A stretch of DNA of 64,000 nucleotides from Naegleria gruberi (GCA_000004985.1 GG738847.1), one strand, 5' to 3'. Counted from the first letter of the stretch, positions 2,996-62,883 are shown. Notes: a model not told the origin generated them from the sequence alone. Program-made: numbers and translations.

Positions 2996-5014
2996 TTATT
3001 CCTGTTTTCTTTTCTTTTTTTCCTTCTTTTCCTTTTTATGCTTCTTTCTCTTCTTCCTTTCCTCATCATCTGAGGATGAGTCCAACATTTTGCGAATATC
3101 TGAAATTCTTGACTCTAATTGAGCAATATAACTTGTTGTCGAATCTCTTTTCATTGGATAAACATTAAAATCCAATTTCTTTTTCTCCTCTTTCTTTTCT
3201 ACAACTTCTACCTCTTTCTTTTCTTTCTTTTCCTTTGACTTCATGCTCTCTAGCACAGCCTTTCTCTTCTCAATTAGAGAATGAGACGACACCTCTCCTT
3301 TAGATTCCTTCATTTCTTTTACTATATCCTTGAGGGAATTTACGCTATCAAAAGAGAGAATATCTTCAGACTTTTCATTACTCTTTGTTTGTTGAGGCGT
3401 GTGAATTCTATTAGAAGGTACCACTTCGTCATCGTGTTCTATAATATTCCTCACTTTGGTCTCAAATACTTGTTTGAATAAATCAATAGAAGGTCTAGCT
3501 CCATCTTCCATCTTGTCTTGATTTTTCACAGATTGATCTGGATTTTGCTCCACAATGAAATCTTTTGCCAATACATGCGATTGCTTTTGTGTTGTTTCAG
3601 TTGTGGTATTTACAGGAATAGATATTGGATTACATCCAAAACGTTTGGAGAGTAATGGTTCTGGTCTCCAATCTGAGATAGTTCTAGACTTTTCTCGATT
3701 CACTCGAGTAGTACTACTTTTTGATGCCTCAGTACTACCATTGTCAGATGAGGAAACAAATCTATTAGACATAGATTTGGCTAAATGTTGTTGCATTTCT
3801 TTGGATTTCTCGCTTTGTCTTGAAGATTCTACCGACTTTTGATTGAGATTTGTAGATTCAAAAAGCTTCTTTCGTCTCTCTTCTGCAGCCATCAAGTGCA
3901 ATTGAATTTTGTGGTCTAATTTTTTGTATTCCTTCTTGATAGCTTCTGTATTAAAAATGTGATTTGGTACAAAATCCTCAGGAACCTTTGGAGGCAAGTA
4001 TTTGGTTTGATTGAGGAAAGGTTGTTTTGATTTAATGAAAATCAACTTCTCATCCCACGTATTTTCCTCACTCTCTTGGGTTGTTCTCAGATCTATATCA
4101 TAATTACTCATATCATCTTCTTGGTAATACTCTTCTTCTGTGGTATTCTTCTTATTATTATGTACAGGTTTTTGAATATTTAATATATCATTAAGGGTTG
4201 AATGTTTGTATCCAATACCACATTTATCTTCCTTAATAATAACAGTCGATAATTTAGAATCTGTGTGCAATTCCACAGAATCTGTCTTGCTATATGATTT
4301 GACTCCAATACCTTTCGAAGGAATCCATCCCATTTTCTTCAATAAGGAATATCCTATATTTGTTTCATTTGAATCATAACTCCTATCATTCAAACTAATC
4401 AATTTTTCAGAACTGCCGAATAATGCTTCCAAATGTCTTTGATCTGAAGAATTAATCTTTCCTCCAAATAAATCAGAAATTGGATCAGCAATTACCTTGT
4501 TTGTCACTTTCATAAATTTATCTGTTGCTTGAACCTGTTTCGAACCACTCAATCCAAAAATCTCTTTCATATCCTCTTCATCCATAAAATCAGTAATCTT
4601 CCTCTCTAATCTAAAATCATTAGATGGATTCCAACCCTCCTTTGATCCAACAGTGTTGAAATAACCAGCAGAATAACCACCTGTAAAGGCTCCATGAAAT
4701 CTTCTTCTTCCCTTTTCATCGGTTGCATATTGTTGATGTTCGGAAGTGTATCTTTCTTGATTATGGGCTTTTAATTCTCTTTCATTCTCTTCATCACCAT
4801 CAAAGATTGGTGTTCCGAATAGAGTTTGATTATTTCTTCTTCTATTATGTGATGAAGAAGAATTGATTTGAGAATGTCCTAACCCTGCCCTTGATTCATG
4901 ATGAGAAGAAAACCCACCATGATGATTATTACTACTGGTTCCTTGTTGATGTGCTCGATTATTCCGCTGCTGATATTGTTGATGATTATTGTGCTTACTA
5001 TGATGATTAAACAT
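2996..5014 (-). CDS. GPATCH1-like protein (DUF1604 N-domain plus G-patch), 672 aa with a K/E-rich tail.
   Basis: ATG at 5012-5014 (minus). The N-terminal motif FHGAFTGGYSAGYFNTVGSKEGW is the GPATCH1/DUF1604 signature. The G-patch is GYSLLKKMGWIPSKGIGVK. His/Asn/Gln-rich N-terminus and Lys/Glu-rich C-terminus. Convergent with the dynein gene, 52 bp between stops. Confidence 0.6.
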   Translation of the reverse strand: MFNHHSKHNNHQQYQQRNNRAHQQGTSSNNHHGGFSSHHESRAGLGHSQINSSSSHNRRRNNQTLFGTPIFDGDEENERELKAHNQERYTSEHQQYATDEKGRRRFHGAFTGGYSAGYFNTVGSKEGWNPSNDFRLERKITDFMDEEDMKEIFGLSGSKQVQATDKFMKVTNKVIADPISDLFGGKINSSDQRHLEALFGSSEKLISLNDRSYDSNETNIGYSLLKKMGWIPSKGIGVKSYSKTDSVELHTDSKLSTVIIKEDKCGIGYKHSTLNDILNIQKPVHNNKKNTTEEEYYQEDDMSNYDIDLRTTQESEENTWDEKLIFIKSKQPFLNQTKYLPPKVPEDFVPNHIFNTEAIKKEYKKLDHKIQLHLMAAEERRKKLFESTNLNQKSVESSRQSEKSKEMQQHLAKSMSNRFVSSSDNGSTEASKSSTTRVNREKSRTISDWRPEPLLSKRFGCNPISIPVNTTTETTQKQSHVLAKDFIVEQNPDQSVKNQDKMEDGARPSIDLFKQVFETKVRNIIEHDDEVVPSNRIHTPQQTKSNEKSEDILSFDSVNSLKDIVKEMKESKGEVSSHSLIEKRKAVLESMKSKEKKEKKEVEVVEKKEEKKKLDFNVYPMKRDSTTSYIAQLESRISDIRKMLDSSSDDEERKKRKKHKKEKKEKKKRKQE

Positions 5015-5301
5015 TTTTTTGTAATTTACCTATTTTTATCATCTAATTTAAATAAAAAAATAAACAAAGTGTTTGTTAAAGGCTACTATTTCTTCTTGTT
5101 CAACAGTTTTGTTTTCTCGTGAAATGTACATTAATGTTAGAATTTATTGTTGTTGTTGGGTTGCTTTGGAAGAGAAATTCTTCATCATGAAAGGAAAGCG
5201 CCAAACTCGAAAAATATTAAAAAAAAATTGGAAACTAAAAAAACCGTTTCCTTGTTTTTTTGCCCATCACATCATCATCATTTGTTTTATTTATTGTTAT
5301 C

Positions 5302-7011
5302 ATGTCTGATTCATCATTATCTTTCTTTCAGAAGGAGACGATTCAAGTGATCGCTCAATCTGTGGGCATTACTAAATTAAAAGATGAAATTGCTCAAGCT
5401 TTGGCTCTTGATGTTGAATATAGAGTGAGAGAAATAATACAAGATGCTTCAAAGTGTATGAAACATGCTAAGAGAGGAGTTTTAACTACAGATGATATTA
5501 GTAATGCCTTGGCAATGAAGAATATCGAGGTAGGTAACTTTGTATATTATTTGATGATCATGAATGTTGTTTTAGCCACTTTACGGATTCAAAGGACAAT
5601 CATCACAACCAAATAGATTTAGGAGAGTTAAACAAACGAAAGATTTATACTTTTTGGAGGATGTAGAACTTGATTTGAAGGATTGTTTGGAAAAACCTCT
5701 TCCAAAGATACCAATAGGACCATCAATATTTACACACTGGTTGGCCATTCAAGGTATTCAACCAAAGATTCCTCAAAATCCTACTATTGAAGAAACAGAA
5801 TCGGAAAGAAAGAAGGAATCAAAAGATAAGGATCAATCCAAGAAAGTTTCATCATCACACGATCCTAATGTAGAATTTAAACCACTTGTCAAACATATAT
5901 TATCGGAAGAACTCCAAATGTACTTTGAAAAAGTTACAGAAGCTATCAAAGATACTACAAACCAAAAGAAAGAACTAAGAAAAGCTGTCATTGAAAGCTT
6001 GGCAACTGATTCTGGTATTAATCAACTCGTCCCTTATTTTACTCAATTTATTGCTAGTGAAGTCACAAATAATATGAGAAATTTGACTCTTCTTTATAGA
6101 TTGATGGAAATGACAAAAGCACTTCTTGTCAACCCAAATATTCATATTGAACTTTATGTATGTACTGCTTTGAATCATTTTAAATCTTATCATAGTATTA
6201 GCTTCATCAAATAATGCCTTCAATTCTGACTTGTATTGTTGGTAAAACTTTATGTGAAAATCCATATGAAAACCATTGGGGACTTCGAGACTTTTCAGCA
6301 AATACTATTGCCTATATTTGTCGCAAGTAAGTTTCTATTATATTTTTGAAACAGTATTCATCAAATATTTAAAGATTTGGCTCCTCATATCATACCCTCC
6401 AACCCAGAATTACTAAAACATTGCTTCATGCATTTTTAGATCCAAAAAGGTCAAGGGCAACTCATTATGGTGCTATTGTAGGAATTACAGCTCTAGGATC
6501 ACATGTAACACAACTCTTGCTCTTGGAACCTCCTAAGAATTCTAACCTTAAAATATTTTGCAATTTACTCCTTCCTGAACTTGTTTCCTCTGACATGAAC
6601 ACTAAACACCAGGCCTTTATGTGTTACAAAGCATTATTAACAGCCCCTGGAAACTTTTTCACTCAACTTGCTAGGTTTTTCAAACTTGAACAACAGGAAC
6701 GTGTGAGAGATCTTGGAGAAAATTCAAATGTTATTGAAGAGGATGATAATTATTACGAATCTCCTCAACTTGATTCATCAAAGAAGAGAGATTCCAACAA
6801 ATCAGAGGAGGTTCTAAAGATTGAACAATTGACCAGAGAAATGAGAGAAAGAATGAATTCATCCAATATTCCAGAAGATGTTTCTGAAAGATATTCAGAA
6901 TTCTTTGATTTGTTTGGTGAATCAGTATTTTCCTTCATTGACTATGATGTTTATAACAAGAAACCTGACAACTCTCCTGATGCATTCCTGCTTCGTGACT
7001 TGATTTTGTAA
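5302..7011 (+). CDS. TAF6: TFIID subunit TAF6 homolog, 4 exons: ~5302-5529, 5576-6157, 6202-6326, 6408-7011. Introns ~46, 44 and 81 nt.
   Basis: Exon 1 MSDSSLSFFQKETIQVIAQSVGITKL...TTDDISNALAMKNIE joins PLYGF... after a GTAGGT...TTTTAG intron. This matches the TAF6 histone-fold N-terminus (ESIKVIAESVGI...DVEYR...KRxxLTTxDIDxAL...NVEPLYGF). Downstream exons give LHQIMPSILTCIVGKTLCENPYENHWGLRDFSANTIAYICRK and ITKTLLHAFLDPKRSRATHYGAIVGI, the TAF6 middle domain. Junctions are GTATGT...TATTAG and GTAAGT...CCCAG. Confidence 0.75.
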
Positions 7012-7275: not shown

Positions 7276-8373
7276 ATGCAAACAAGAAACATACTCGTGT
7301 CCGGACTGGGTGGTGGTCTCGATATTCAAAATGCTCTTTTATTATTTAAACTTTTAAAGAATACACAAAAACACTCGAGTGAGCTTTCTGATGATTTTCA
7401 ATTTAATATTGCTAATGTATACCTTGGTTCAGTGAGACCTTGTCGCCAAGAAAATATCAATGATCCGATTGATACAACAATTTCACCATTTGTAACTGTG
7501 ATCGGAGCAAATAGTACAATTTCTATCAAGGGAAGATATTTTGAACCAACAATTGCAAAAGAATTAAATGAAAATGTAATCATGATGACAGGTTCAGTGG
7601 ACAAGACACCTACTGTTGACACTTTGGCAATTGACAATTTGAAAGAAGGATTGAAAGCACTTACAGAAAAGTATCAATTGACTGATTTGATATTTGTTGA
7701 TGGTGGTGGAGACTCTTTGATACTAGACAGTAATGACACAATTGATAAGGTAGGTCTATAATTGGAGTAATATTGATTCAATTTACAAAAAAAGATTCAT
7801 AACAATGTATTTATTGGTGGAGATGCTGTATGCTTAGCTGCTCTCCATAAATTGTCTTTGGAATTACCAAATATCAATATAATTCAAGGAATTATTGCTG
7901 TTGGATTGGATGTTAACAGGAAAGCATTCAAAAAGAATGTTAAAGAAATTGGAGAACGTGGAGGATATTACGGAAGAGTAAATTTTTCAACAGGAAAATC
8001 AGTTGACACAAGAAATCATACCAATGTTTTTGTAAACTCTCTCACACGTTACATATTTGAAAATCAAATTGTAAGAGAGGCAACTTTACAGGAATTCTTT
8101 GAAGTTGCAGAAAAATATCTTGTCCTCACACCAGAGCACTGTAAAATCAAAGACGATCCAAAAGCAACAGAGAAGAGATTTATGAGTCATACTGCAGTTG
8201 TGACCTATCATGCTTTGAAGAATAATTTTGGACTTCAAAGGACATTTGTTCCTTGGGAACCAAAATTGAAGGAAGGAAAGGGAGTAGTTGTAGATGTTGA
8301 CCATCAGTGGCTCTACCTACTCAATCCAGCCACTGCTGAGCAAATTAAAATTGACAAATTTAACACTGAATAA
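7276..8373 (+). CDS. Conserved hypothetical protein (~350 aa), 2 exons: 7276-7749 and 7795-8373, with a 45-nt GTAGGT...AAAAAG intron.
   Basis: ORFs 7276..7761 and 7852..8373 join in phase 0 (...SNDTIDK|IHNNVFIGGDAVC...). Gly-rich motifs LVSGLGGGLD and IFVDGGGDSL; no family recognised. Confidence 0.4.
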
Positions 8374-8419
8374 AAACTTTCCCGCCAAATAAATTGTTCA
8401 ATTTTTAAATTTAAAAAAA

Positions 8420-11400
8420 ATGAAAAGAAAACAAAAAGAAGCTCAAATCATTTCATCATCGGATGAAGCAGATGATGAAGTTGTTGTTGTGATTAATTCG
8501 AGTGATGAATCGGAAGAGGATGATAACGATTATGGTTATTCACTAGTAAAGGGTAGTGGCCAATATAAGTCTCTTTATGATTTTACTATTGTGTCAAATC
8601 CTGATTATTTGGAGAATGGAGATAAACCAAGGTTCTTTTCTATTGAAGGATTGACTTCGGTTGGAAAGGAATTATTTGCTTGTGGAATGTGCTTTAGTCA
8701 TGACAAGAAAACTGACAGCAAAGTTGGCTCACGTTCAGTATTTGGACCTATTAAAGAATGGGCAATAGAATATAGATTCTTGCCTGTTGTTAGTATTTTG
8801 GTTGAAACTTCGTCAAAGGATACCGAGTGGATTGAACTTATTTCTCCAACAAAAGAATATTTTCACATATTCAATTCTACATATCAGACGATTGCTGTGT
8901 GCCATGCTTTGATTAATCTTGTTCAGAGACATCCAAAAGAGTCGTACGAATCTATTATAGAAATGGTAGGTTTATTGGAATTATTCAGTCTTTAACATTT
9001 AAATAGCTCAAAAAAGCACAATTGGCTTTTATTTACCACCCAACCATAAGAAATACTAAACCCATTGTAAGCGAGGATTACATTCTTGAAAAATCAAAAT
9101 TTATTTCAGAACAATTCAATAGTTTACAAGAGACGAGGGTTTTAAACTCTTCATTCTTTTCACAACTAGTAAGTGTCTTCTTAAATTAATTCTAACGCAT
9201 TTATAGGAGGACATAATGATGAGAGGGGGAGTTCTTGCTGAACTTATTACTTCATCTGAGGAGGAAGAGGATGACACTCAATCAACAAGCTCAGAAGAAG
9301 AGTTTGTTCCAAAGGGTGCTCACTCTGATCCAAGTGATGAATCCATGTCAGAAGTTGTCTCAGAATCATCAGATTCTTCTGACTCTTTTTATAAACCAAA
9401 ATCTGTGAAAACTAAAAAGCAAACAAAATCTAAGAAAACCCTCTCTACTGTATCAACTAAAAAGGAAAATTTAATTAATGACGATTATTCGAGTGGCTCT
9501 GAGGAAGAAACTAAGACTAAGAAAACTAAAGCAAAATCCTTGAAGAAAACAACAGTCAAAAAAGAAAAGAAGGAGAAGGAAATTGTAAATAAGAATTTAG
9601 AACAAATTAAAGCCCATGACCTTGAAGATATCAAATGGGGAAAGCCAATCAGTAAGAAAATTGACGAATCAGGTCGAAAATATTTCAAGTCTTGTAAAAT
9701 TTCAAAAGAGGAATATAATATTGGCGATTTTATCTACTTGAAAACTCCATATCTCAATCATGAAATGCCATACTATATTTGTATGGTTGATTCATTCTTT
9801 GAAAATTGGAAAGGTCAGCGTCAGATGCGAGTGAGATGGCTTAGAAGATATCAAGATATTAAGATACTTACTACAGGAGAATATCATAATGTACTTTGTT
9901 ATGATCACCAGGAGTTGTACTTGACAGACGAATATGATGATGTGAGTATACTTACTTTAATTAATTACAAACATAATATTTTAGAACTTTATCAAGAACA
10001 TTAAGGGAAGATGTGCTGTATTTTTTGTAAGAAAGACTGAAGATTTTGAAAAAATTGAAGGATCACGAGATAAGAAGGATATTTTCTATTGTAAAAGCAA
10101 GATTGTAATTGTTGGAGAACAGATTTCTCTGTTAGAGTTAAGTCCACAAGAAATTGAACTCACATTCAAATGTATGGAAAATAACTTGAATGCCATTAAG
10201 GACCAATTCATTCCAAAAGAAAAAATTACAGCTCTTGACATATTTTCTGGTTGCGGTGGGTTGAGCCTAGGGTTGGAAAGAGCAGGTATCCATGTTAAAT
10301 ACAGCATCGAATTTTGGAAACCAGCAGCTGATACTCATCACTATTATTTCAAAGATTGCCACACCTTTTGTAAGAATGCCGAAGAGTTCCTCAAGCACAT
10401 TAAGGTGGCTAATGAATTGAAAAAAAGGTTTGGTCTTTTAGATAAAAAGTGTCAAATCAAAGGTTCACCTGGTAAGAGAAGAGTGATCCACATCAAAAAT
10501 GCCAAAAGAAAGAAGGATGGATCTCTTTGGTTAATGGTTGAGAAACAGGGTCAAGATTTGTGGATGGATGTTGAAAAAATGGATAGTTATAGAGCAGAAA
10601 TTGTACATTTTCTATCAACAAAATATGCAAACATACCAGCACCTGACGAAATTGATTTAATTGCTGGAGGACCTCCTTGTCAAGGATTCAGTTTACTGAA
10701 TAGATTCAAAGAAACAGATTCATCAAAGTTCTTATCACACGATAAGAATCGTTTAGTTTTAGTGTTTTTGGATTATGTGAAATACTTTAAGCCTAAATAT
10801 GTACTGATTGAAAATGTGACAGGTATTCTTAACACGACAGTATTTGATGTACCATCAGCAATCATTGAAAAGTTGGATGCAAGAGGTTATGAAGCCAAAT
10901 TCTCAACAGTTAACGCACAACACTTTGGAGTAAGTTTTTAATATATTTCAATAACGTAATTTATCGTTAAAGTTACCACAAACAAGAACAAGAGTAATTT
11001 TCTTTGGTGCAAGAAAGGATGAAAACCTTAAAGTTCCAGATTTCCCAAAGAATACTCATGCTTCCCATAAAGTTAGTGCTGTTCTTGACAATGCCAGTCA
11101 GGTAAAACTTGTAGCAAATGTAAGAAAGATTGTTGCAGGACCTCTTCCTCCTGTTTCACTCAGAGATGTTATTAGTGATCTGATTCCTTTTGAGGATTCA
11201 TCAGAATCAACTGCTGAATATCTACCTCCAAAGACAGTCTATCAAAAGCTCTATAGAAAGGATAGCGATACTTGCATTGATCACATTTCACAATCATATG
11301 GAGAGGTAACCTCAGCACTTATCAAATGTTTACCTAGATATCCTGGTTGTAATTTTAGAGATTTGGCAGAAAGTGCAAGACCACTTTTAAAAGAGGGTTA

Positions 11401-12193
11401 TTTGACCTATAGAGACTTTTCCAAGAATATTCTAGCTAGATTGCAGTGGAGTAAGAGTTGCCCAACACTTGTCACTCACTTGAACCCATATAGTATGAAG
11501 GTAATTCATCCCAATCAACATCGAGTTATTTCTGTAAGGGAGGCTGCTAGATGTCAGGGCTTCCCTGACGATTTTATATTTACTGGAAGCATTCACGATA
11601 AGTACAAACAAATTGGTAATGCTGTTCCTGTGAATATGGCCAAGGCGTTGGGAGGTGAAATTATTAAGGCCTATACAAATCATCTTTTAGACAAGAATGG
11701 AAATAGAAGAGAGGTTGAAGCAACAACAACGAAGAAATTGAGAGAAAATATGTACAAATGGTTTTCAGATCTGAAGTCATGGGCCAGTAAGGACTATGAA
11801 CCAAAACCTTTACTCAAGGAACTCATAGATATTCTAAAACCAATTGACAAATCTCTATGTGATGGATATCTAGTTCCACCGACAGACGAGGATATTCAAT
11901 TCTTGAAAAAAGAAATACCGAGACTGGTTCAGAAACATGCCAGTGATACAGAAGAGGTTATTACCCAAGAAGTCAAGGTCATTTATAATGATTCGTCAGA
12001 TGACGATGAAGCTGATGCAGAATGCTCAAATTCAGAAGAATCTGACAATCAAGACGAAGAAACTGAAATTCAAAAAGCTGCTTCTCAAAGAAAATCAAAG
12101 AAAGCTCCAGCCAAAAAGAAACCTGTTCTATCTGAAAGCTCTTCTGAAGAAGAAGAAGCTATCATTAGTATTTCTGATTCTGATTCTGATTAA
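8420..12193 (+). CDS. DNMT1-like maintenance-type C5 cytosine DNA methyltransferase (RFD - acidic/Ser-rich linker - BAH - MTase), ~1200 aa in 5 exons. Exons ~8420-8965, 9007-9168, 9207-9941, 9985-10929, 10973-12193; introns 41, 38, 43, 43 nt.
   Basis: Exon 1 has a replication-foci-domain-like region (…FGPIKEWAIEYRFLPVVSILVETSSKDTEWIELISPTKEYFHIFN…). Exon 3 has a BAH domain (YFKSCKISKEEYNIGDFIYLKTP…RVRWLRRYQDI…CYDHQELYLTDEYDD, continued by IKGRCAVFFV…DIFYCKSK). MTase motif I is DIFSGCGGLSLGLERAG, IV is GGPPCQGFS, VI is LIENV, VIII is AQHFG|LPQTRTRVIFFGA (across an intron), IX-X is RVISVREAARCQGFPDDF…GNAVPV. Junctions are GTAGGT, GTAAGT, GTGAGT and GTAAGT donors with YAG acceptors. Acidic SDSDSD C-terminus. 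Confidence 0.8.
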
Positions 12194-12392: not shown

Positions 12393-12650
12393 ATGGAACA
12401 AGACAAATTACAACCACTCTCACCAGGTACACTCACTCAATTTACCTTGAACATGATTGAAGATTGTTTTGATGTTTGCAACAAGAAACAAACTACAAGT
12501 AATAATTCATCATCATCATCACTCCACAAGGAATGTATCGGAAATTGTTATCAACTCTATCAACAAGGCTTTATCTATTTATTAAATCATTATCAAAATA
12601 ATAACAATCAATCTAATTCTATCAATAATAATAATAATAATATTAATTAA
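12393..12650 (+). CDS. Small Tim-like (twin CX3C) protein, 85 aa with a poly-Asn C-terminal tail.
   Basis: Two C-x3-C motifs, CFDVC and CIGNC, spaced as in Tim8/9/10/13 family members. The tail is encoded by an (AAT)n microsatellite. Confidence 0.4.
   Translation: MEQDKLQPLSPGTLTQFTLNMIEDCFDVCNKKQTTSNNSSSSSLHKECIGNCYQLYQQGFIYLLNHYQNNNNQSNSINNNNNNIN
12611..12650. repeat. (AAT/AAC)n microsatellite encoding a poly-Asn tail.
   Basis: aataataataataataatattaattaataat at the 3' end of the Tim-like ORF. Confidence 0.6.
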
Positions 12651-12677: not shown

Positions 12678-13310
12678 TTAAAGGCTAAAAACAAGAGTGA
12701 AATTATTAGCTGGCATACTCACTCTCTCAATTAATTTCAATCCGAATTGATTGGCTTCCTTTTCTACTTGTTCTACATCTCTAATGCCCCACAATGGATT
12801 TCTCAATTTTAAATTCTCATCAAAGTTTCTATTGCCTTCACTTGTAAATTCACCATTAACATTGAAAGGACCATACAAGAATAGATAACCATTGCCAGTA
12901 GCAGCAGATGATGATGATGATTTTAAAATCTCACTCGCATGCTTCATCAACATGGTACAACACTTGAACGGCGAAATGTGTACAAGATTAATGGCAATAA
13001 TGGCTTTAAATTTGCATTCAAAGGGCAATGATTCCTCTCTGGAAATATCAATAATGGTGGGTGTTAAAACATTGGATAGTGATGAGGTTCTTTCCTTGAT
13101 AATTGCAAAATTCTCATCAGTCATTTCGGAAGGATGAAAAATCAGGTTTTGGAACTCTTTGGCAAAGTGTGAAACATGTTGACCATAACCTGAGGCAATT
13201 TCCAAGATTTGCTCTCCAGAATCTTTTTCATTGGAGAGGTATTTGAGGAGAACTTGCAAGATTGGTTCCTTGTTTCTTTCAGCTGCTTCACTATAGTTTG
13301 GCAAGGACAT
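12678..13310 (-). CDS. Class I SAM-dependent methyltransferase of the DUF938/METTL26-like family, 210 aa.
   Basis: EIASGYGQHVSHFAKEF…IINLVHISPF…GYLFLYGPF pattern. Convergent with the Tim-like gene, only ~27 bp between stops. Confidence 0.45.
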   Translation of the reverse strand: MSLPNYSEAAERNKEPILQVLLKYLSNEKDSGEQILEIASGYGQHVSHFAKEFQNLIFHPSEMTDENFAIIKERTSSLSNVLTPTIIDISREESLPFECKFKAIIAINLVHISPFKCCTMLMKHASEILKSSSSSAATGNGYLFLYGPFNVNGEFTSEGNRNFDENLKLRNPLWGIRDVEQVEKEANQFGLKLIERVSMPANNFTLVFSL

Positions 13311-58170: not shown

Positions 58171-60288
58171 TTAATTCAATTTTCTTACAATTAAGGGCCA
58201 ACCAACTTGTATCACTGCATACTTATGAATGCTTTTTGATTTGTCAGCATCATTTTCATATTGAGCATATTGTTTGACTTGAGAAATTGCAGAATTCAAA
58301 ATTGATCTGGCTACAACTTTCTCTTTGGCATGAGTAAGTACTTCCATTTCTAATAATTCTTCATCAGTTTGTTTAGATAAATCTTTAAATATATTTTTAA
58401 AAATTTGCGGATTCCAATATTCAATATTGGAATATTTTGTTAAAGAATTTGGTCTAATACGTTTGAATTCAATTATTAATACTTTTTTAGAAGTTCTTAT
58501 CACAAGATCAGCACGTTTGATGTATTCCTTATTGTTAGAATTCTTTACATGATATTCCTTTTCAGCTTGAATTTTCAATTCTTTGTTTCTAAATAAACAA
58601 TATGCTCTTAATGCAGATTCAATACTTGCTTGTAAACCTCCTTCAGACATTGAATTGTCATAAATAGTTTCTTGTTTTTCTAAAATATTATTGAGTAACA
58701 TTCTCAAATTATCTTGGGTAGGTTCATTAATAAAAGTTGATACATCATTTTCATGTAGAGATATAAGTCTACGTAACTGCTCTAAATATTGGACTTTTGC
58801 AATTTCATTTGGAATTAACAATTGTTTTGGGTTCATCTGTTTTGATGATTCTTTTGTGAAGGTAACCATACCGTGATAATACATGAATGATAAAGCATTA
58901 TCACGAATCTTTTGTATATCTTCTTCATTGGATGGTGGATCAATAATCTCTCTTAATTTCAGTGAAGGATAAATTGACTCTGTTACTTCTACATAATCTT
59001 TTGAAAGTAATTGTTGAATAATATCATTCGATACAACTGATGATGCCAAAGTTGCAAAAACGTTCTCACTGATCATTGTGTTGGTATCTGTTAATATTGA
59101 TAATGGAATTTCTTGTTTTTGTAGAACAGCATTTCTGAAAGGTTCATCTTTTACAAGTTTGTTCAAAAAGAACATTGAAAGAGTTGTGTTGAATAGAGCA
59201 TGTTTTGAACCAGGAAAATGATAACCTTTATAATACTTTTTCATGGTTGAAATGGTAATATCTTGATCATTTCCAATAATATCAATGTTATTTAATGCCA
59301 TTCTCAGATCATTTTCTGTAAAACCAACCAAACCACCAAATATCTTATCAAAGGAAATATTACTGGAAACATTATATCCAGATGCATCTGCAAGAGCAAT
59401 AGGAGTGATACCAGTGATGATACTACGAAAATCTTGTAAACCAACACCGGAAGACTCTTTCAATCTTTCAAAGAAAGAACGAATTGGTGAAGATGTTGGA
59501 TCTCCTCTCTTTCCTTCAACTATTAATTGATATTTTTCAGGATTTTCAAACATTAATTTGTTTGCAAATCTATCATATTCATCAATTAATATCATTAATT
59601 TGGCTCCTTTTTCTATTAATATAGCCACCAGAGTTGCTAAAGTATCGAACGAATTTTTGTGATTAATATCCATCTCTTTAGTTAATTCATAGTAACGTAA
59701 AAAACCATAAATGGATGTGTTTACTTTCTCATGAAGCCGTTGATTAATATCTTCCGTTGTACCATCAACTTGAATAGAAAAATCTAACTTTAAAACATGA
59801 TATTGATTCTTTCCAGGTGTCCAATTATTTTCATCACCAATCCATAAACCAGAAAATAATTCATCAAATTCATCTTTCTTGTTAATATCATAATATGATG
59901 AAAGCATTGATAATAATAGTGATTTTCCCCATCTCGGAGGACGAACAAAAAATAATTGTTTTCCACTTTCTTCTAATAGAGGAATTAAATTAGTTTTATC
60001 AACATAAAATTGTTTACTTCTTCTGATGGAAGCAAAATCTGATTCACCATATGGAAAATATGGCACCAACAAATTTCCGTCACCAATATTTTTAAATTTA
60101 ATATTTTCAACATTATTTGTTGTTGGTTTTAATGTATTTGAATAGTTTTTAGTTTGATTCACTCTATTAATTGTAAACTTGTTAATATCATTAGTTAAAT
60201 TATTAATTTTTAATATTGATCTATTGATTTTGGGTGATGCAGTAAATAACTGCAATCTATTGATTTTACGAAGGAAGGTATGTTTCAT
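58171..60288 (-). CDS. Predicted AAA-ATPase-like (PF09820-type N-domain) plus PD-(D/E)XK nuclease-like (PDDEXK_9-type C-domain) protein, 705 aa in a single exon.
   Basis: The N-domain signature is FYVDKTNLIPLLEESGKQLFFVRPPRWGKSLLLSMLSSYYD…HVLKLDFS… (consensus …RPRRFGKSL…). The C-terminal …NKEYIKRADLVIRTSKKVLIIEFKRIR… is the PD-(D/E)XK core (D…(I/V)EFK). It is preceded by an ~100-aa Asn/Lys-rich low-complexity leader. It is flanked by the two largest ORF-free intervals in the window (~57.5-58.2 kb and 60.3-61.6 kb). Confidence 0.75.
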   Translation of the reverse strand: MKHTFLRKINRLQLFTASPKINRSILKINNLTNDINKFTINRVNQTKNYSNTLKPTTNNVENIKFKNIGDGNLLVPYFPYGESDFASIRRSKQFYVDKTNLIPLLEESGKQLFFVRPPRWGKSLLLSMLSSYYDINKKDEFDELFSGLWIGDENNWTPGKNQYHVLKLDFSIQVDGTTEDINQRLHEKVNTSIYGFLRYYELTKEMDINHKNSFDTLATLVAILIEKGAKLMILIDEYDRFANKLMFENPEKYQLIVEGKRGDPTSSPIRSFFERLKESSGVGLQDFRSIITGITPIALADASGYNVSSNISFDKIFGGLVGFTENDLRMALNNIDIIGNDQDITISTMKKYYKGYHFPGSKHALFNTTLSMFFLNKLVKDEPFRNAVLQKQEIPLSILTDTNTMISENVFATLASSVVSNDIIQQLLSKDYVEVTESIYPSLKLREIIDPPSNEEDIQKIRDNALSFMYYHGMVTFTKESSKQMNPKQLLIPNEIAKVQYLEQLRRLISLHENDVSTFINEPTQDNLRMLLNNILEKQETIYDNSMSEGGLQASIESALRAYCLFRNKELKIQAEKEYHVKNSNNKEYIKRADLVIRTSKKVLIIEFKRIRPNSLTKYSNIEYWNPQIFKNIFKDLSKQTDEELLEMEVLTHAKEKVVARSILNSAISQVKQYAQYENDADKSKSIHKYAVIQVGWPLIVRKLN

Positions 60289-62809: not shown

Positions 62810-62883
62810 TACAGCGAGCGGGGCTTGAACCCGCGACCTTAAGCGTGTTAGGCTTACGATCTAACCAACTGATCTATCGCTGC
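62810..62883 (-). tRNA. tRNA-Val (anticodon AAC), 74 nt, no intron, CCA not encoded.
   Basis: Reverse complement GCAGCGATAGATCAGTTGGTTAGATCGTAAGCCTAACACGCTTAAGGTCGCGGGTTCAAGCCCCGCTCGCTGTA folds as a canonical cloverleaf. The 7-bp acceptor stem has G1·U72. D-stem is GATC/GATC, anticodon stem TAAGC/GCTTA, loop CUAACAC (U33, AAC, A37), T-stem GCGGG/CCCGC, T-loop TTCAAGC, discriminator A. Confidence 0.9.

What the first reader, a model, noticed from the sequence alone, without database searches (positions are those of the whole stretch)
8420..12193. Complete DNMT1-like RFD-BAH-MTase gene with five exons and 38-43-nt introns
This shows the organism has a maintenance-type 5mC methyltransferase, not only a Dnmt2-type enzyme. 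All ten C5-MTase motifs are present, including the catalytic PCQ and ENV, and motif VIII is split by an intron. Only one BAH domain is recognisable; canonical DNMT1 has two. The protein has long acidic/Ser-rich linkers and a (SD)n tail. All four introns were hand-resolved with in-phase GT-AG junctions, which gives a good calibration set for this genome's splice signals.
Basis: partly seen in the sequence, partly recalled or inferred. Interest (0 to 1): 0.5.

Follow-up and report, generated by a model that had tools for sequence, protein, structure and literature searches.

The report
Naegleria DNMT1-like DNA methyltransferase gene
This is the already published DNMT1-family cytosine DNA methyltransferase gene of the amoeba Naegleria gruberi; the hand-built five-exon model is correct, but the enzyme is a DNMT1/chromomethylase hybrid, not a textbook maintenance DNMT1.

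Summary
Window 8420-12193 (+) holds a five-exon gene with four phase-0 GT-AG introns of 41, 38, 43 and 43 nt. It encodes 1,202 aa with DNMT1-RFD, one BAH and a complete C5-MTase domain. All four junctions are supported by three orthologous loci.

The window is Naegleria gruberi NEG-M. The gene is already public as XP_002682263. Funabiki et al. 2023 list it under 'other DNA methylases'. Sarre et al. 2025 call it a DNMT1 orthologue and published the methylome: 0.28% 5mC, no CpG preference, weak CpG symmetry, on H3K9me3/H3K27me3 repeats. The public model places the MTase domain 325 residues later.

The 'maintenance-type DNMT1' reading is only partly supported:
- There is one BAH and no CXXC.
- A roughly 90-aa module between motifs III and IV folds as a chromodomain, at the site where plant chromomethylases (CMTs) carry theirs. 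The methyl-lysine cage residues are not conserved.
- In my NJ trees the heterolobosean clade lies inside the DNMT1/CMT superfamily but outside both DNMT1+MET1+fungal and CMT.

The gene and family are already known. The hybrid architecture is a modest, apparently unreported addition.

The parts
8420..8965 (+). Exon 1 (aa 1-182): acidic N-terminus and most of the RFD.
   Evidence: ORF from the first ATG after an in-frame stop. The start peptide MKRKQKEAQIISSSDEADDEVVVV is conserved in L001 (MSKNNKRALPSSSEEEDDDDVVIV) and L002 (MKRKKQETCENISSSDFDDDRVVVIV).
8966..9006 (+). Intron 1: 41 nt, GTAGGT...ATAG, phase 0.
   Evidence: L001 changes frame and L002 breaks its HSP at the same residue. The Willaertia protein is ungapped at the junction.
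9007..9168 (+). Exon 2 (aa 183-236): C-terminal part of the RFD region.
   Evidence: The mouse RFTS alignment extends to aa 226.
9169..9206 (+). Intron 2: 38 nt, GTAAGT...ATAG, phase 0.
   Evidence: L001 carries a 42-nt insertion at exactly this position (TL[14 aa]EE against QL|ED).
9207..9941 (+). Exon 3 (aa 237-481): K/S/E-rich disordered linker (237-373) and the first two thirds of the BAH domain.
9942..9984 (+). Intron 3: 43 nt, GTGAGT...TTAG, phase 0. It lies inside the BAH domain.
   Evidence: L001 has no intron here and reads DVDENYITNIKG against DEYDD|NFIKNIKG. L002 breaks at 481/482. Willaertia reads DD|N.
9985..10929 (+). Exon 4 (aa 482-796): end of the BAH, MTase motifs I-VII and the chromodomain-fold insert.
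10930..10972 (+). Intron 4: 43 nt, GTAAGT...AAAG, phase 0, at G796|L797 just before QTRTR (motif VIII).
   Evidence: L001 has a 39-nt stop-containing interruption at the same place. L002 breaks there too. Willaertia reads HYG|LPQSRTR.
10973..12193 (+). Exon 5 (aa 797-1202 plus TAA): motifs VIII-X, the TRD, a conserved C-terminal region and the acidic/(SD)n tail.
8648..9138 (+). Replication-foci (RFD/RFTS) domain, aa ~77-226 (Pfam core 95-184); spans intron 1.
   Evidence: PF12047, E 3.7e-12 and 1.4e-14. It aligns to the mouse DNMT1 RFTS.
9708..10098 (+). Single BAH domain, aa 404-519 (AF2 barrel ~aa 378-533); spans intron 3.
   Evidence: PF01426, E 4.1e-19, one stretch. The AF2 model shows it at pLDDT ~90.
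10219..11689 (+). C5 cytosine methyltransferase domain, aa 560-1035: motif I 10243-10260, PPCQ 10672-10683 (Cys713), ENV 10810-10818, QTRTR 10979-10993, motif IX 11537-11569, motif X 11615-11629.
   Evidence: PF00145, E 2.4e-57. AF2 pLDDT is 90-98 over the core.
10372..10647 (+). Inserted module between motifs III and IV, aa 611-702: a long helix (613-629), a loop, three beta strands (650-656, 662-668, 671-676) and a helix (681-694). This is a chromodomain fold without the aromatic cage.
11702..11959 (+). C-terminal region aa 1040-1125, conserved with Willaertia; no known family.
   Evidence: The BLASTP alignment to P0137 runs to aa 1123. The alignment is shown. Pfam gives only noise.

Best explanation
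Window 8420-12193 is the Naegleria gruberi gene for its DNMT1-superfamily DNA (cytosine-5) methyltransferase, public as XP_002682263.

Protein layout (1,202 aa):
- an acidic N-terminus
- an RFD/RFTS domain
- a disordered K/S/E-rich linker
- one BAH domain directly upstream of the catalytic domain
- a complete C5-MTase domain carrying a roughly 90-aa helix-plus-chromodomain-fold module between motifs III and IV
- a lineage-conserved C-terminal region
- an acidic tail

Catalysis is expected to follow the standard C5-MTase mechanism. Cys713 of PCQ makes the nucleophilic attack, assisted by Glu757 of ENV and Arg801/803 of QxRxR, with SAM bound by motifs I-III and X. This follows from established knowledge of the family.

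The enzyme belongs to a separate heterolobosean lineage (Naegleria, Willaertia, Acrasis) of the DNMT1/MET1/CMT superfamily. It combines a DNMT1 hallmark (RFD) with CMT hallmarks (one MTase-proximal BAH and a chromodomain-fold insert at the same site).

Inferred, not shown: it is the enzyme, or one of two, that lays down the sparse, context-independent 5mC found on N. gruberi heterochromatic repeats. The RFD would couple it to a UHRF1-type, replication- or ubiquitin-dependent recruitment. It would therefore work as a chromatin-targeted de novo plus perpetuating methylase, not as a strict hemimethylated-CpG copier.
For: Organism: eight flanking ORFs are 100% identical to N. gruberi NEG-M proteins on a 941,567-bp contig.

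Gene model: the spliced ORF is clean, and three orthologous loci support all four junctions and the start codon.

Domains and motifs.

Similarity ranking in the PDB: DNMT1 2.6e-67, MET1 8e-61, ZMET2 1.1e-56, DIM2 5.9e-27, DNMT5 2.5e-4.

Structure: the AF2 model of aa 374-1039 has pLDDT 86.5 and pTM 0.89. Its best Foldseek E-value is ZMET2 (2.5e-49); DNMT1 gives the best TM (0.68-0.73).

Insert:
- The motif I-to-IV spacer is 142 aa here, against 75-79 in animal DNMT1, ~90 in fungal DNMT1, 97 in MET1 and 163-196 in CMT.
- It aligns onto the CMT chromodomain, including the preceding helix and the 'TWEP' Trp.
- No CMT sequence was in either MSA and no templates were used.

Lineage: Willaertia has the same RFD + one BAH + split MTase architecture. 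Among 150 representatives, RFD together with a long spacer occurs only in this lineage.

NJ bootstraps: Het clade 96%, all-eukaryote DNMT1/CMT superfamily 89%, DNMT1+MET1+fungal without Het 91%.

Literature:
- N. gruberi 5mC is 0.28%, in all CX contexts, on repeats and silent genes carrying H3K9me3/H3K27me3, and is attributed to DNMT1 orthologues (PMC12344493).
- UHRF1, CDCA7 and HELLS homologues are listed for N. gruberi (PMC10538959).
Against: - No expression, junction-read or enzymatic data were available to me.
- Sarre et al. speak of 'two DNMT1 enzymes', although their Table S1 lists one. A paralogue outside this window may therefore share or carry the activity.
- The chromodomain assignment rests on predicted structure. 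Pfam Chromo does not hit, and hhalign against CMT chromodomains is only marginal (P 0.0066, probability 5.8%).
- The CMT cage residues F/W/Y correspond to R/L/E here, and the WxGY hairpin is missing.
- The BAH cage is Y/W/R and varies among orthologues. Histone-mark reading by these modules is therefore doubtful.
- Profile scores of the catalytic core are not specially CMT-like: fungal DNMT1 367 bits, animal 348, MET1 330, CMT 309.
- NJ does not resolve the lineage's position: Het+CMT 29%, Het+DNMT1 13%, CMT+DNMT1 53%.
- My trees are distance-based, lack DIM-2 and haptophyte CMT-like sequences, and cannot settle deep branching.
Confidence: 0.75

Rival explanations
1. This is a canonical maintenance DNMT1. 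The RFD targets it to replication foci through UHRF1-made ubiquitin marks, and it copies hemimethylated CpG.
For: The RFD, BAH and full MTase domains are present. The best PDB sequence hits and the best global TM-scores are DNMT1. UHRF1, CDCA7 and HELLS homologues are listed for N. gruberi. Sarre et al. call it a well-conserved DNMT1.
Against: The methylome has no CpG preference, CpG symmetry of r = 0.25 and few fully methylated sites. The protein has one BAH instead of two and no CXXC. It carries a chromodomain-fold insert that is absent from all DNMT1, MET1 and fungal DNMT1 representatives. DNMT1+MET1+fungal form a clade without it in 91% of NJ bootstraps. Funabiki et al. score DNMT1 as not detected in N. 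gruberi.
Confidence: 0.15
2. This is a true chromomethylase-type enzyme. Its BAH and chromodomain read H3K9 methylation on nucleosomes and direct non-CG methylation to heterochromatin, as ZMET2 and CMT3 do.
For: ZMET2 gives the best Foldseek E-value. A single phmmer stretch covers BAH through MTase against ZMET2 and plant CMTs. The chromodomain fold sits at the same insertion site with the same preceding helix. The BAH scores best against CMT BAH domains, at 16.6 mean bits against 8-13 for DNMT1 BAH1 and BAH2. N. gruberi 5mC is non-CG and coincides with H3K9me3.
Against: The aromatic cages are not conserved in the chromo-like module (R/L/E for F/W/Y) and only partly in the BAH (Y/W/R, variable in orthologues). 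Pfam Chromo gives no hit. An RFD is present, which none of the three CMT representatives scanned with Pfam has and none of the long-spacer CMT-class representatives matched with my RFD profile. Het+CMT is recovered in only 29% of bootstraps, and the CMT profile scores lowest on the core.
Confidence: 0.2
3. The public, longer gene model is right. The protein would be a DUF1152-DNMT fusion whose mRNA splices out the upstream stop codon and ATG 8420.
For: Funabiki et al. place the MTase domain of XP_002682263 at residues 885-1357, against 560-1032 here, an offset of 325 aa. In-frame fused models with an extra 121-nt intron (8307-8427) exist and give offsets of 318 or 326 aa. The intergenic gap is only 46 nt.
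Against: The upstream ORF has its own stop at 8371-8373. It is a separate DUF1152-family protein. The Willaertia orthologue is 1,188 aa and starts with the RFD. In L001 the DNMT gene directly follows TAF6 with no DUF1152, and in L002 the upstream ORF is unrelated. All three loci keep an ATG at the same conserved N-terminal peptide. A 121-nt intron would be three times the size of the four verified introns.
Confidence: 0.1
4. This is an inactive relic or non-catalytic scaffold.
For: No direct evidence. Global 5mC is very low at 0.28%.
Against: The 1,202-codon ORF is intact, all catalytic motifs are present, and the MTase profile score is strong. Conservation with Willaertia and two further relatives covers the insert and the C-terminal region. 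The organism does have 5mC.
Confidence: 0.03

Closest known systems
DNMT1 / MET1 / fungal DNMT1 (RFTS-[CXXC]-BAH1-BAH2-MTase maintenance methyltransferases)
   Same: It has an N-terminal RFD/RFTS, a BAH and a full C5-MTase domain with a large TRD, at similar overall length. These give the best sequence scores (230 bits to mouse DNMT1) and the best global TM-scores (0.68-0.73). Sarre et al. 2025 class it as a DNMT1 orthologue.
   Different: It has one BAH, not two, and no CXXC. The motif I-IV spacer is 142 aa and holds a chromodomain-fold module, against 75-97 aa with none. It lies outside the DNMT1+MET1+fungal clade in NJ (91%). The organism's methylome is not CpG-specific or symmetric.
Plant chromomethylases (CMT3/ZMET2, CMT2)
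   Same: A single BAH sits immediately upstream of the MTase. A chromodomain-fold module with a preceding long helix is inserted at the same point before motif IV. ZMET2 gives the best Foldseek E-value. A colinear alignment runs from the BAH into the TRD. The organism's non-CG, H3K9me3-associated methylation matches the CMT pattern.
   Different: An RFD is present, which the scanned CMT representatives lack. Pfam Chromo is not detected. The insert is ~30 aa shorter and lacks the WxGY hairpin and the F/W/Y cage. The BAH cage is incomplete. No phylogenetic support for inclusion in CMT.
Haptophyte 'CMT-like' DNMTs (e.g. Emiliania huxleyi XP_005774311)
   Same: In the Funabiki et al. ML tree, XP_002682263 is sister to this sequence (support 78/97), next to chlorophyte sequences and the CMT clade.
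   Different: I could not retrieve that sequence, so its architecture and insert were not compared. None of the 20 representatives whose source names I looked up was a haptophyte; the other 130 were not identified.
Fungal DIM-2
   Same: It belongs to the DNMT1 superfamily, carries BAH domains and performs heterochromatin-directed non-CG methylation.
   Different: It is much more distant: 97 bits against 230 in the PDB sequence search, and Foldseek 3e-33 against ~1e-45.

Membership tests
C5 cytosine DNA methyltransferase (PF00145) | Conserved motifs I-X, including FxGxGG, PCQ (catalytic Cys), ENV, QxRxR, RExxRxQxFPD and GNAVP. | tested here: met
   PF00145 scores E 2.4e-57 in two stretches, the best covering profile positions 57-324 of 324. 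The key motifs I, IV, VI, VIII, IX and X are located at aa 568-573, 711-714, 757-759, 799-803, 985-995 and 1011-1015.
DNMT1/MET1 (sensu stricto) | An RFD/RFTS domain N-terminal of the catalytic domain. | tested here: met
   PF12047 scores E 3.7e-12 on the whole protein and 1.4e-14 on the excised region. It aligns to the mouse RFTS.
DNMT1/MET1 (sensu stricto) | Two tandem BAH domains (BAH1, BAH2) between the RFD and the MTase. | tested here: not met
   Pfam finds one BAH stretch and the AF2 model shows one barrel. The animal, plant and fungal representatives each show two stretches.
DNMT1/MET1 (sensu stricto) | Catalytic domain nested in the DNMT1+MET1+fungal DNMT1 clade. | tested here: not met
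   In NJ on 394 columns that clade excludes the heterolobosean sequences in 91% of 300 bootstraps, and Het+DNMT1 is recovered in 13%. Published ML trees disagree: 'other DNA methylase' against 'DNMT1 orthologue'. Because my method is distance-based, this is a weak 'not met'.
DNMT1/MET1 (sensu stricto) | Preference for hemimethylated CpG (maintenance activity). | not testable with these tools
   Only indirect evidence exists. The published methylome shows no CpG preference and symmetry of r = 0.25.
DNMT1/CMT/DIM-2 superfamily (broad 'DNMT1 family') | A eukaryotic BAH-linked C5-MTase that is monophyletic against bacterial MTases. | tested here: met
   Het+CMT+DNMT1+MET1+fungal form a clade in 89% of bootstraps against the closest bacterial MTases. 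The top PDB hits are all DNMT1, MET1 and ZMET2.
Chromomethylase (CMT) | A chromodomain embedded in the MTase domain before motif IV. | tested here: inconclusive
Chromomethylase (CMT) | Aromatic cages in the chromodomain (ZMET2 F441/W466/Y469) and the BAH (Y203/W224/F226) that bind H3K9me2. The residue numbers are from memory; I checked the register on the Paspalum orthologue. | tested here: not met
   The chromo positions are R/L/E and the WxGY hairpin is absent. The BAH positions are Y/W/R in N. gruberi, H/F/L in Willaertia and Q/W/Y in L001.
Chromomethylase (CMT) | Placement in the CMT clade, with the BAH-chromo-MTase architecture and no RFD. | tested here: not met
   The CMT clade has 100% support without the heterolobosean sequences, and Het+CMT is recovered in 29%. 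An RFD is present here and absent from CMT representatives.
DIM-2 | Closest similarity to fungal DIM-2 catalytic domains. | tested here: not met
   DIM2 (9bap) scores 97 bits against 230 for DNMT1. Foldseek gives 3e-33 to 3e-26 against ~1e-45.
DNMT5 | A C-terminal SNF2 ATPase (plus RING) and a DNMT5-type MTase domain. | tested here: not met
   No SNF2 or RING Pfam hit. DNMT5 (7r76) scores only 22 bits.

The most novel reading that the evidence does not exclude
Heterolobosean enzymes (Naegleria, Willaertia, probably Acrasis) may form a third, so far unnamed branch of the DNMT1/CMT superfamily. They would keep the DNMT1-type RFD and also carry a cage-less chromodomain inserted at exactly the chromomethylase site, next to a single CMT-like BAH.

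If the insert is homologous to the CMT chromodomain, a chromodomain-bearing, context-flexible enzyme predates plants and may be close to the ancestral eukaryotic state. Animal, plant and fungal DNMT1 would then have lost the insert and duplicated the BAH. This architecture would also give a structural reason for the unexplained CX (non-CpG) methylation of N. gruberi.
Probability: 0.3. Interest if true: 0.6.

Novelty: already known. Interest (0 to 1): 0.3.

Why it matters
Naegleria is a discoban near the proposed root of eukaryotes. Its DNMT1-family enzyme, together with UHRF1, CDCA7-HELLS and TET-like homologues, is used to argue that 5mC silencing was present in the last eukaryotic common ancestor. 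That role is already in the literature.

This check adds three things:
1. The hand-built 1,202-aa model and its start codon are well supported. The public model appears to be a chimera with an unrelated DUF1152 gene, which affects domain-architecture and phylogenetic work that uses XP_002682263.
2. The protein should not be treated as a proxy for a CpG maintenance enzyme.
3. It carries a chromodomain-fold insert at the chromomethylase position. This gives a testable lead for why N. gruberi methylates all cytosine contexts in heterochromatin, and for how DNMT1 and CMT architectures are related.

Tried and rejected
- The whole-protein homologue search was swamped by the low-complexity linkers and returned only 2 hits. 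I repeated it with the MTase domain alone.
- Neither the word-index search nor the exhaustive search returned N. gruberi's own protein, and exact look-ups failed. For a while I thought the gene was unannotated. The supplement of Funabiki et al. showed it is XP_002682263, so I dropped the 'unannotated gene' idea.
- Bacterial ~700-aa MTases outscored eukaryotic DNMT1s. This is not bacterial affinity, because they are tandem double MTases whose two domains add up.
- Pfam on the excised insert found no chromodomain. Profile-profile comparison with CMT chromodomains is only marginal. The chromodomain claim therefore rests on predicted fold and position.
- I considered arguing from a 'short TRD' against maintenance function. 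I dropped it because MET1-type enzymes align across the TRD in one stretch with only ~18 extra residues.
- I could not reproduce the exact 325-aa offset of the public model. The nearest in-frame fusions give 318 or 326 aa, so the fusion is inferred and not shown.
- The afdb50 structure library was unavailable.
- The E2F-like motif upstream of the ATG is shared with L001 but not exactly with L002. I kept it only as a side note.
- Hashimoto et al. 2014 could not be read.


Full report
**1. What is in the sequence**

Window 8420-12193 (+) was read directly. The four introns are 41, 38, 43 and 43 nt, all GT..AG and phase 0, with 19-26% GC against 35% for the CDS. None is a multiple of three, so retention would break the frame. 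ATG 8420 is the first start codon after an in-frame stop.

Pfam finds DNMT1-RFD (aa 95-184, E 3.7e-12; 1.4e-14 on the excised region), one BAH (404-519, E 4.1e-19) and DNA_methylase (E 2.4e-57, two stretches, the best covering profile positions 57-324 of 324). The catalytic motifs are intact: FSGCGG 568-573, PPCQ 711-714 (Cys713), ENV 757-759, QTRTR 799-803, REAARCQGFPD 985-995 and GNAVP 1011-1015. Intron 4 lies at G796|L797, two residues before QTRTR. The linker at aa 237-373 is K/S/E-rich, and the tail ends in SISDSDSD.

**2. Organism and comparative support for the gene model**

Eight neighbouring ORFs are exact matches to Naegleria gruberi NEG-M proteins on one 941,567-bp contig. Examples are EFC49713 at 2996-5014(-) and EFC49714 at 12678-13310(-). 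Three orthologous loci were recovered:

- The Willaertia magna protein KAL9657727.1 (P0137, 1,188 aa). It is colinear with aa 48-1123 of the model and has RFD + one BAH + a split MTase.
- A JGI metagenome contig, L001.
- A syntenic Logan contig, L002, with the gene order G-patch gene, TAF6, RFD-BAH-MTase.

Willaertia aligns without gaps across all four junctions, reading DD|N and HYG|LPQSRTR at junctions 3 and 4. L001 is interrupted exactly at introns 1, 2 and 4 and reads straight through junction 3. L002 breaks its HSPs at aa 180/183, 481/482 and 796/797. The start codon and the first ~25 residues are conserved in L001 and L002. The hand-built model is therefore well supported without RNA-seq.

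**3. The gene is already known, but the public model is probably chimeric**

My database searches did not return N. gruberi's own protein. The supplement of Funabiki et al. (eLife 2023, PMC10538959) contains it as XP_002682263. It has identical sequence across the MTase domain, numbered 885-1357 there against 560-1032 here.

The extra ~325 residues match the size of the two upstream ORFs, 7276-7761 and 7852-8373. These encode a DUF1152-family protein with its own stop codon 46 nt before ATG 8420. In-frame fusions through a hypothetical 121-nt intron (8307-8427) give offsets of 318 or 326 aa.

No orthologue carries this extension. In L001 the DNMT gene directly follows TAF6.

**4. What the literature already says**

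Funabiki et al. list XP_002682263 under 'Other DNA methylases' and score DNMT1 as 'ND' for N. gruberi. They also list DNMT2 (XP_002681354), UHRF1 (XP_002680882), CDCA7 and HELLS homologues. In their ML tree the protein is sister to Emiliania XP_005774311 (support 78/97), outside the DNMT1/MET1/DIM2 clade and next to chlorophyte sequences and the CMTs.

Sarre et al. (MBE 2025, PMC12344493) call it a 'well-conserved DNMT1' and determined the methylome:

- 5mC makes up 0.28% of cytosines.
- All four CX dinucleotides are methylated equally.
- CpG symmetry is r = 0.25, and few sites are fully methylated.
- There are 447 hypermethylated regions on repeats and silent genes, coinciding with H3K9me3 and H3K27me3.

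The authors note that non-CpG and probably de novo activity is unexpected for 'only two DNMT1 enzymes' and leave the reason open. Their Table S1 lists one DNMT1 and one DNMT2. The finding is therefore not new, and 'maintenance-type' conflicts with the published methylation pattern.

**5. Architecture: a chromodomain-fold insert at the chromomethylase position**

The distance from motif I to motif IV falls into clear classes:

| Group | Spacer (aa) |
|---|---|
| N. gruberi | 142 |
| Willaertia, Acrasis, P0138 | 138-145 |
| Animal DNMT1 | 75-79 |
| Fungal DNMT1 | ~90 |
| MET1 | 97 |
| CMTs | 163-196 |

An AlphaFold2 model of aa 374-1039 was built from an MSA with no CMT sequences and no templates. 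It is confident (mean pLDDT 86.5, pTM 0.89). The insert appears as a long helix (613-629), a loop, three beta strands (650-656, 662-668, 671-676) and a helix (681-694), at pLDDT ~90.

HP1, Chp1 and CHD1 follow.

MAFFT aligns the insert onto the CMT chromodomain, sharing the helix before it (AEEFLKHIKVANELKKRF against ADEFLALLKEWAVLCKKY) and the structural Trp of 'TWEP'. For the whole model, ZMET2 gives the best Foldseek E-value (2.5e-49) and DNMT1 the best TM-score (0.68-0.73).

The sequence evidence is weak. Pfam Chromo does not hit, and hhalign against CMT chromodomains gives P 0.0066 and probability 5.8%, although in the right register. The CMT methyl-lysine cage (F/W/Y) corresponds to R/L/E, and the WxGY hairpin is missing. 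The BAH cage positions are Y/W/R here and vary among orthologues. The fold and the site are CMT-like, but canonical H3K9me reading is not supported.

**6. Classification**

Labels for the representative sequences were checked by Pfam and source names:

- CMT: BAH + Chromo + MTase, no RFD.
- Animal DNMT1: RFD + CXXC + 2 BAH.
- MET1: 2 RFD + 2 BAH.
- Fungal DNMT1: RFD + 2 BAH.

Among 150 exhaustive-search representatives, 48 have an RFD and 27 have a long spacer. Only Willaertia has both.

I built NJ trees on 394 trimmed catalytic-core columns with the insert excluded. Bootstrap support in the 51-taxon set (300 replicates) was:

| Grouping | Support |
|---|---|
| Heterolobosean clade | 96% |
| CMT | 100% |
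| DNMT1+MET1+fungal, without heteroloboseans | 91% |
| All of these against bacterial MTases | 89% |
| Het+CMT | 29% |
| Het+DNMT1 | 13% |
| CMT+DNMT1 | 53% |

The 130-taxon tree agrees. Profile scores of the core are not specially CMT-like: fungal 367, animal 348, MET1 330 and CMT 309 bits. The BAH, by contrast, matches CMT BAH domains best. DIM-2 and DNMT5 are far more distant.

The protein is thus a member of the DNMT1/CMT superfamily. It is best described as a separate heterolobosean lineage with mosaic features. It is not a strict DNMT1, CMT, DIM-2 or DNMT5.

**7. How it most likely works**

*Shown.* The gene is intact and conserved, with a complete C5-MTase catalytic apparatus, an RFD, one BAH and a chromodomain-fold insert.

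*From established family knowledge.* Catalysis is SAM-dependent C5 methylation through Cys713, Glu757 and Arg801/803.

*Inferred.*
- It is responsible, alone or with a reported paralogue, for the sparse context-independent 5mC on heterochromatic repeats.
- The RFD couples it to a UHRF1-type recruitment or autoinhibition mechanism.
- The BAH and chromo-like modules contribute to chromatin targeting by an unknown, probably non-canonical, interaction.

The strict hemi-CpG maintenance reading is the less likely one.

**8. Verdict**

The gene and its family assignment are already published, so novelty is low. Two points may be useful to specialists: the chimeric public model, and the previously unremarked chromodomain-fold insert. 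The insert makes this a DNMT1/CMT hybrid and offers a testable lead for Naegleria's non-CpG methylation.

Noticed in passing
window 7276-8373 (+): A two-exon gene for a DUF1152-family protein (Pfam E 2.3e-06) ends 46 nt before the DNMT start codon. It is absent from the orthologous position in L001, where TAF6 directly precedes the DNMT gene, and it is unrelated to the ORF at that position in L002. The public model XP_002682263 appears to fuse it to the DNMT gene, giving a 325-aa offset.
   Followed up: partly
window 8377-8386 (+); L001 ~126-133: A CTTTCCCGCC motif matching the E2F consensus TTTSSCGC lies ~30 nt upstream of ATG 8420. L001 has TTCCCGCC 13 nt before its ATG, and L002 has only TTGCGCAAAA. 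TTYCCGCC occurs 3 times in the 64-kb window against 0.48 expected. Other TTTSSCGC sites are at 5198 (just upstream of TAF6) and 15952. This may be an S-phase promoter element, as reported for mammalian DNMT1 (from memory).
   Followed up: partly
window 11702-11959 (+), aa 1040-1125: A C-terminal region beyond motif X is conserved between N. gruberi and Willaertia (for example LCDGYLVPPT against LCDSVTLPKT). It has no Pfam family and its function is unknown.
   Followed up: no
window 12393-12650 (+): A small 85-aa ORF 200 nt downstream of the DNMT stop codon has a borderline Tim10/DDP zinc-finger match (E 1e-4, 22.2 bits against a 22.3 cutoff) and an Asn-rich tail. UniProt numbering leaves room for only two annotated genes between D2V0G0 and D2V0G3, so this ORF may be unannotated.
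   Followed up: no
window 58171-60288 (-): A 705-aa AAA-ATPase-like protein (EFC49725) shares a 90%-identity cluster with two further copies on the same scaffold (EFC49512, EFC49683) and a partial copy elsewhere. This is a recently duplicated or repeated gene family, the kind of target reported to be methylated in N. gruberi.
   Followed up: no
proteins P0019-P0136, alignment A1: Many metagenomic ~700-750-aa 'DNA cytosine methyltransferases' are tandem fusions of two complete C5-MTase domains. Their summed scores made them outrank true DNMT1 homologues in the word-index search.
   Followed up: partly
window 5260-7011 (+): A TAF6 gene (TAF and TAF6_C domains in the L002 orthologue) is split into at least three ORF blocks, 5260-5616, 5654-6214 and 6421-7011. 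It therefore contains further short introns that could extend the splice-signal calibration set. Synteny G-patch/DUF1604 - TAF6 - DNMT is conserved in L002.
   Followed up: no
window 62810-62883 (-): A single tRNA-Val(AAC) gene is the only tRNA in the window.
   Followed up: no
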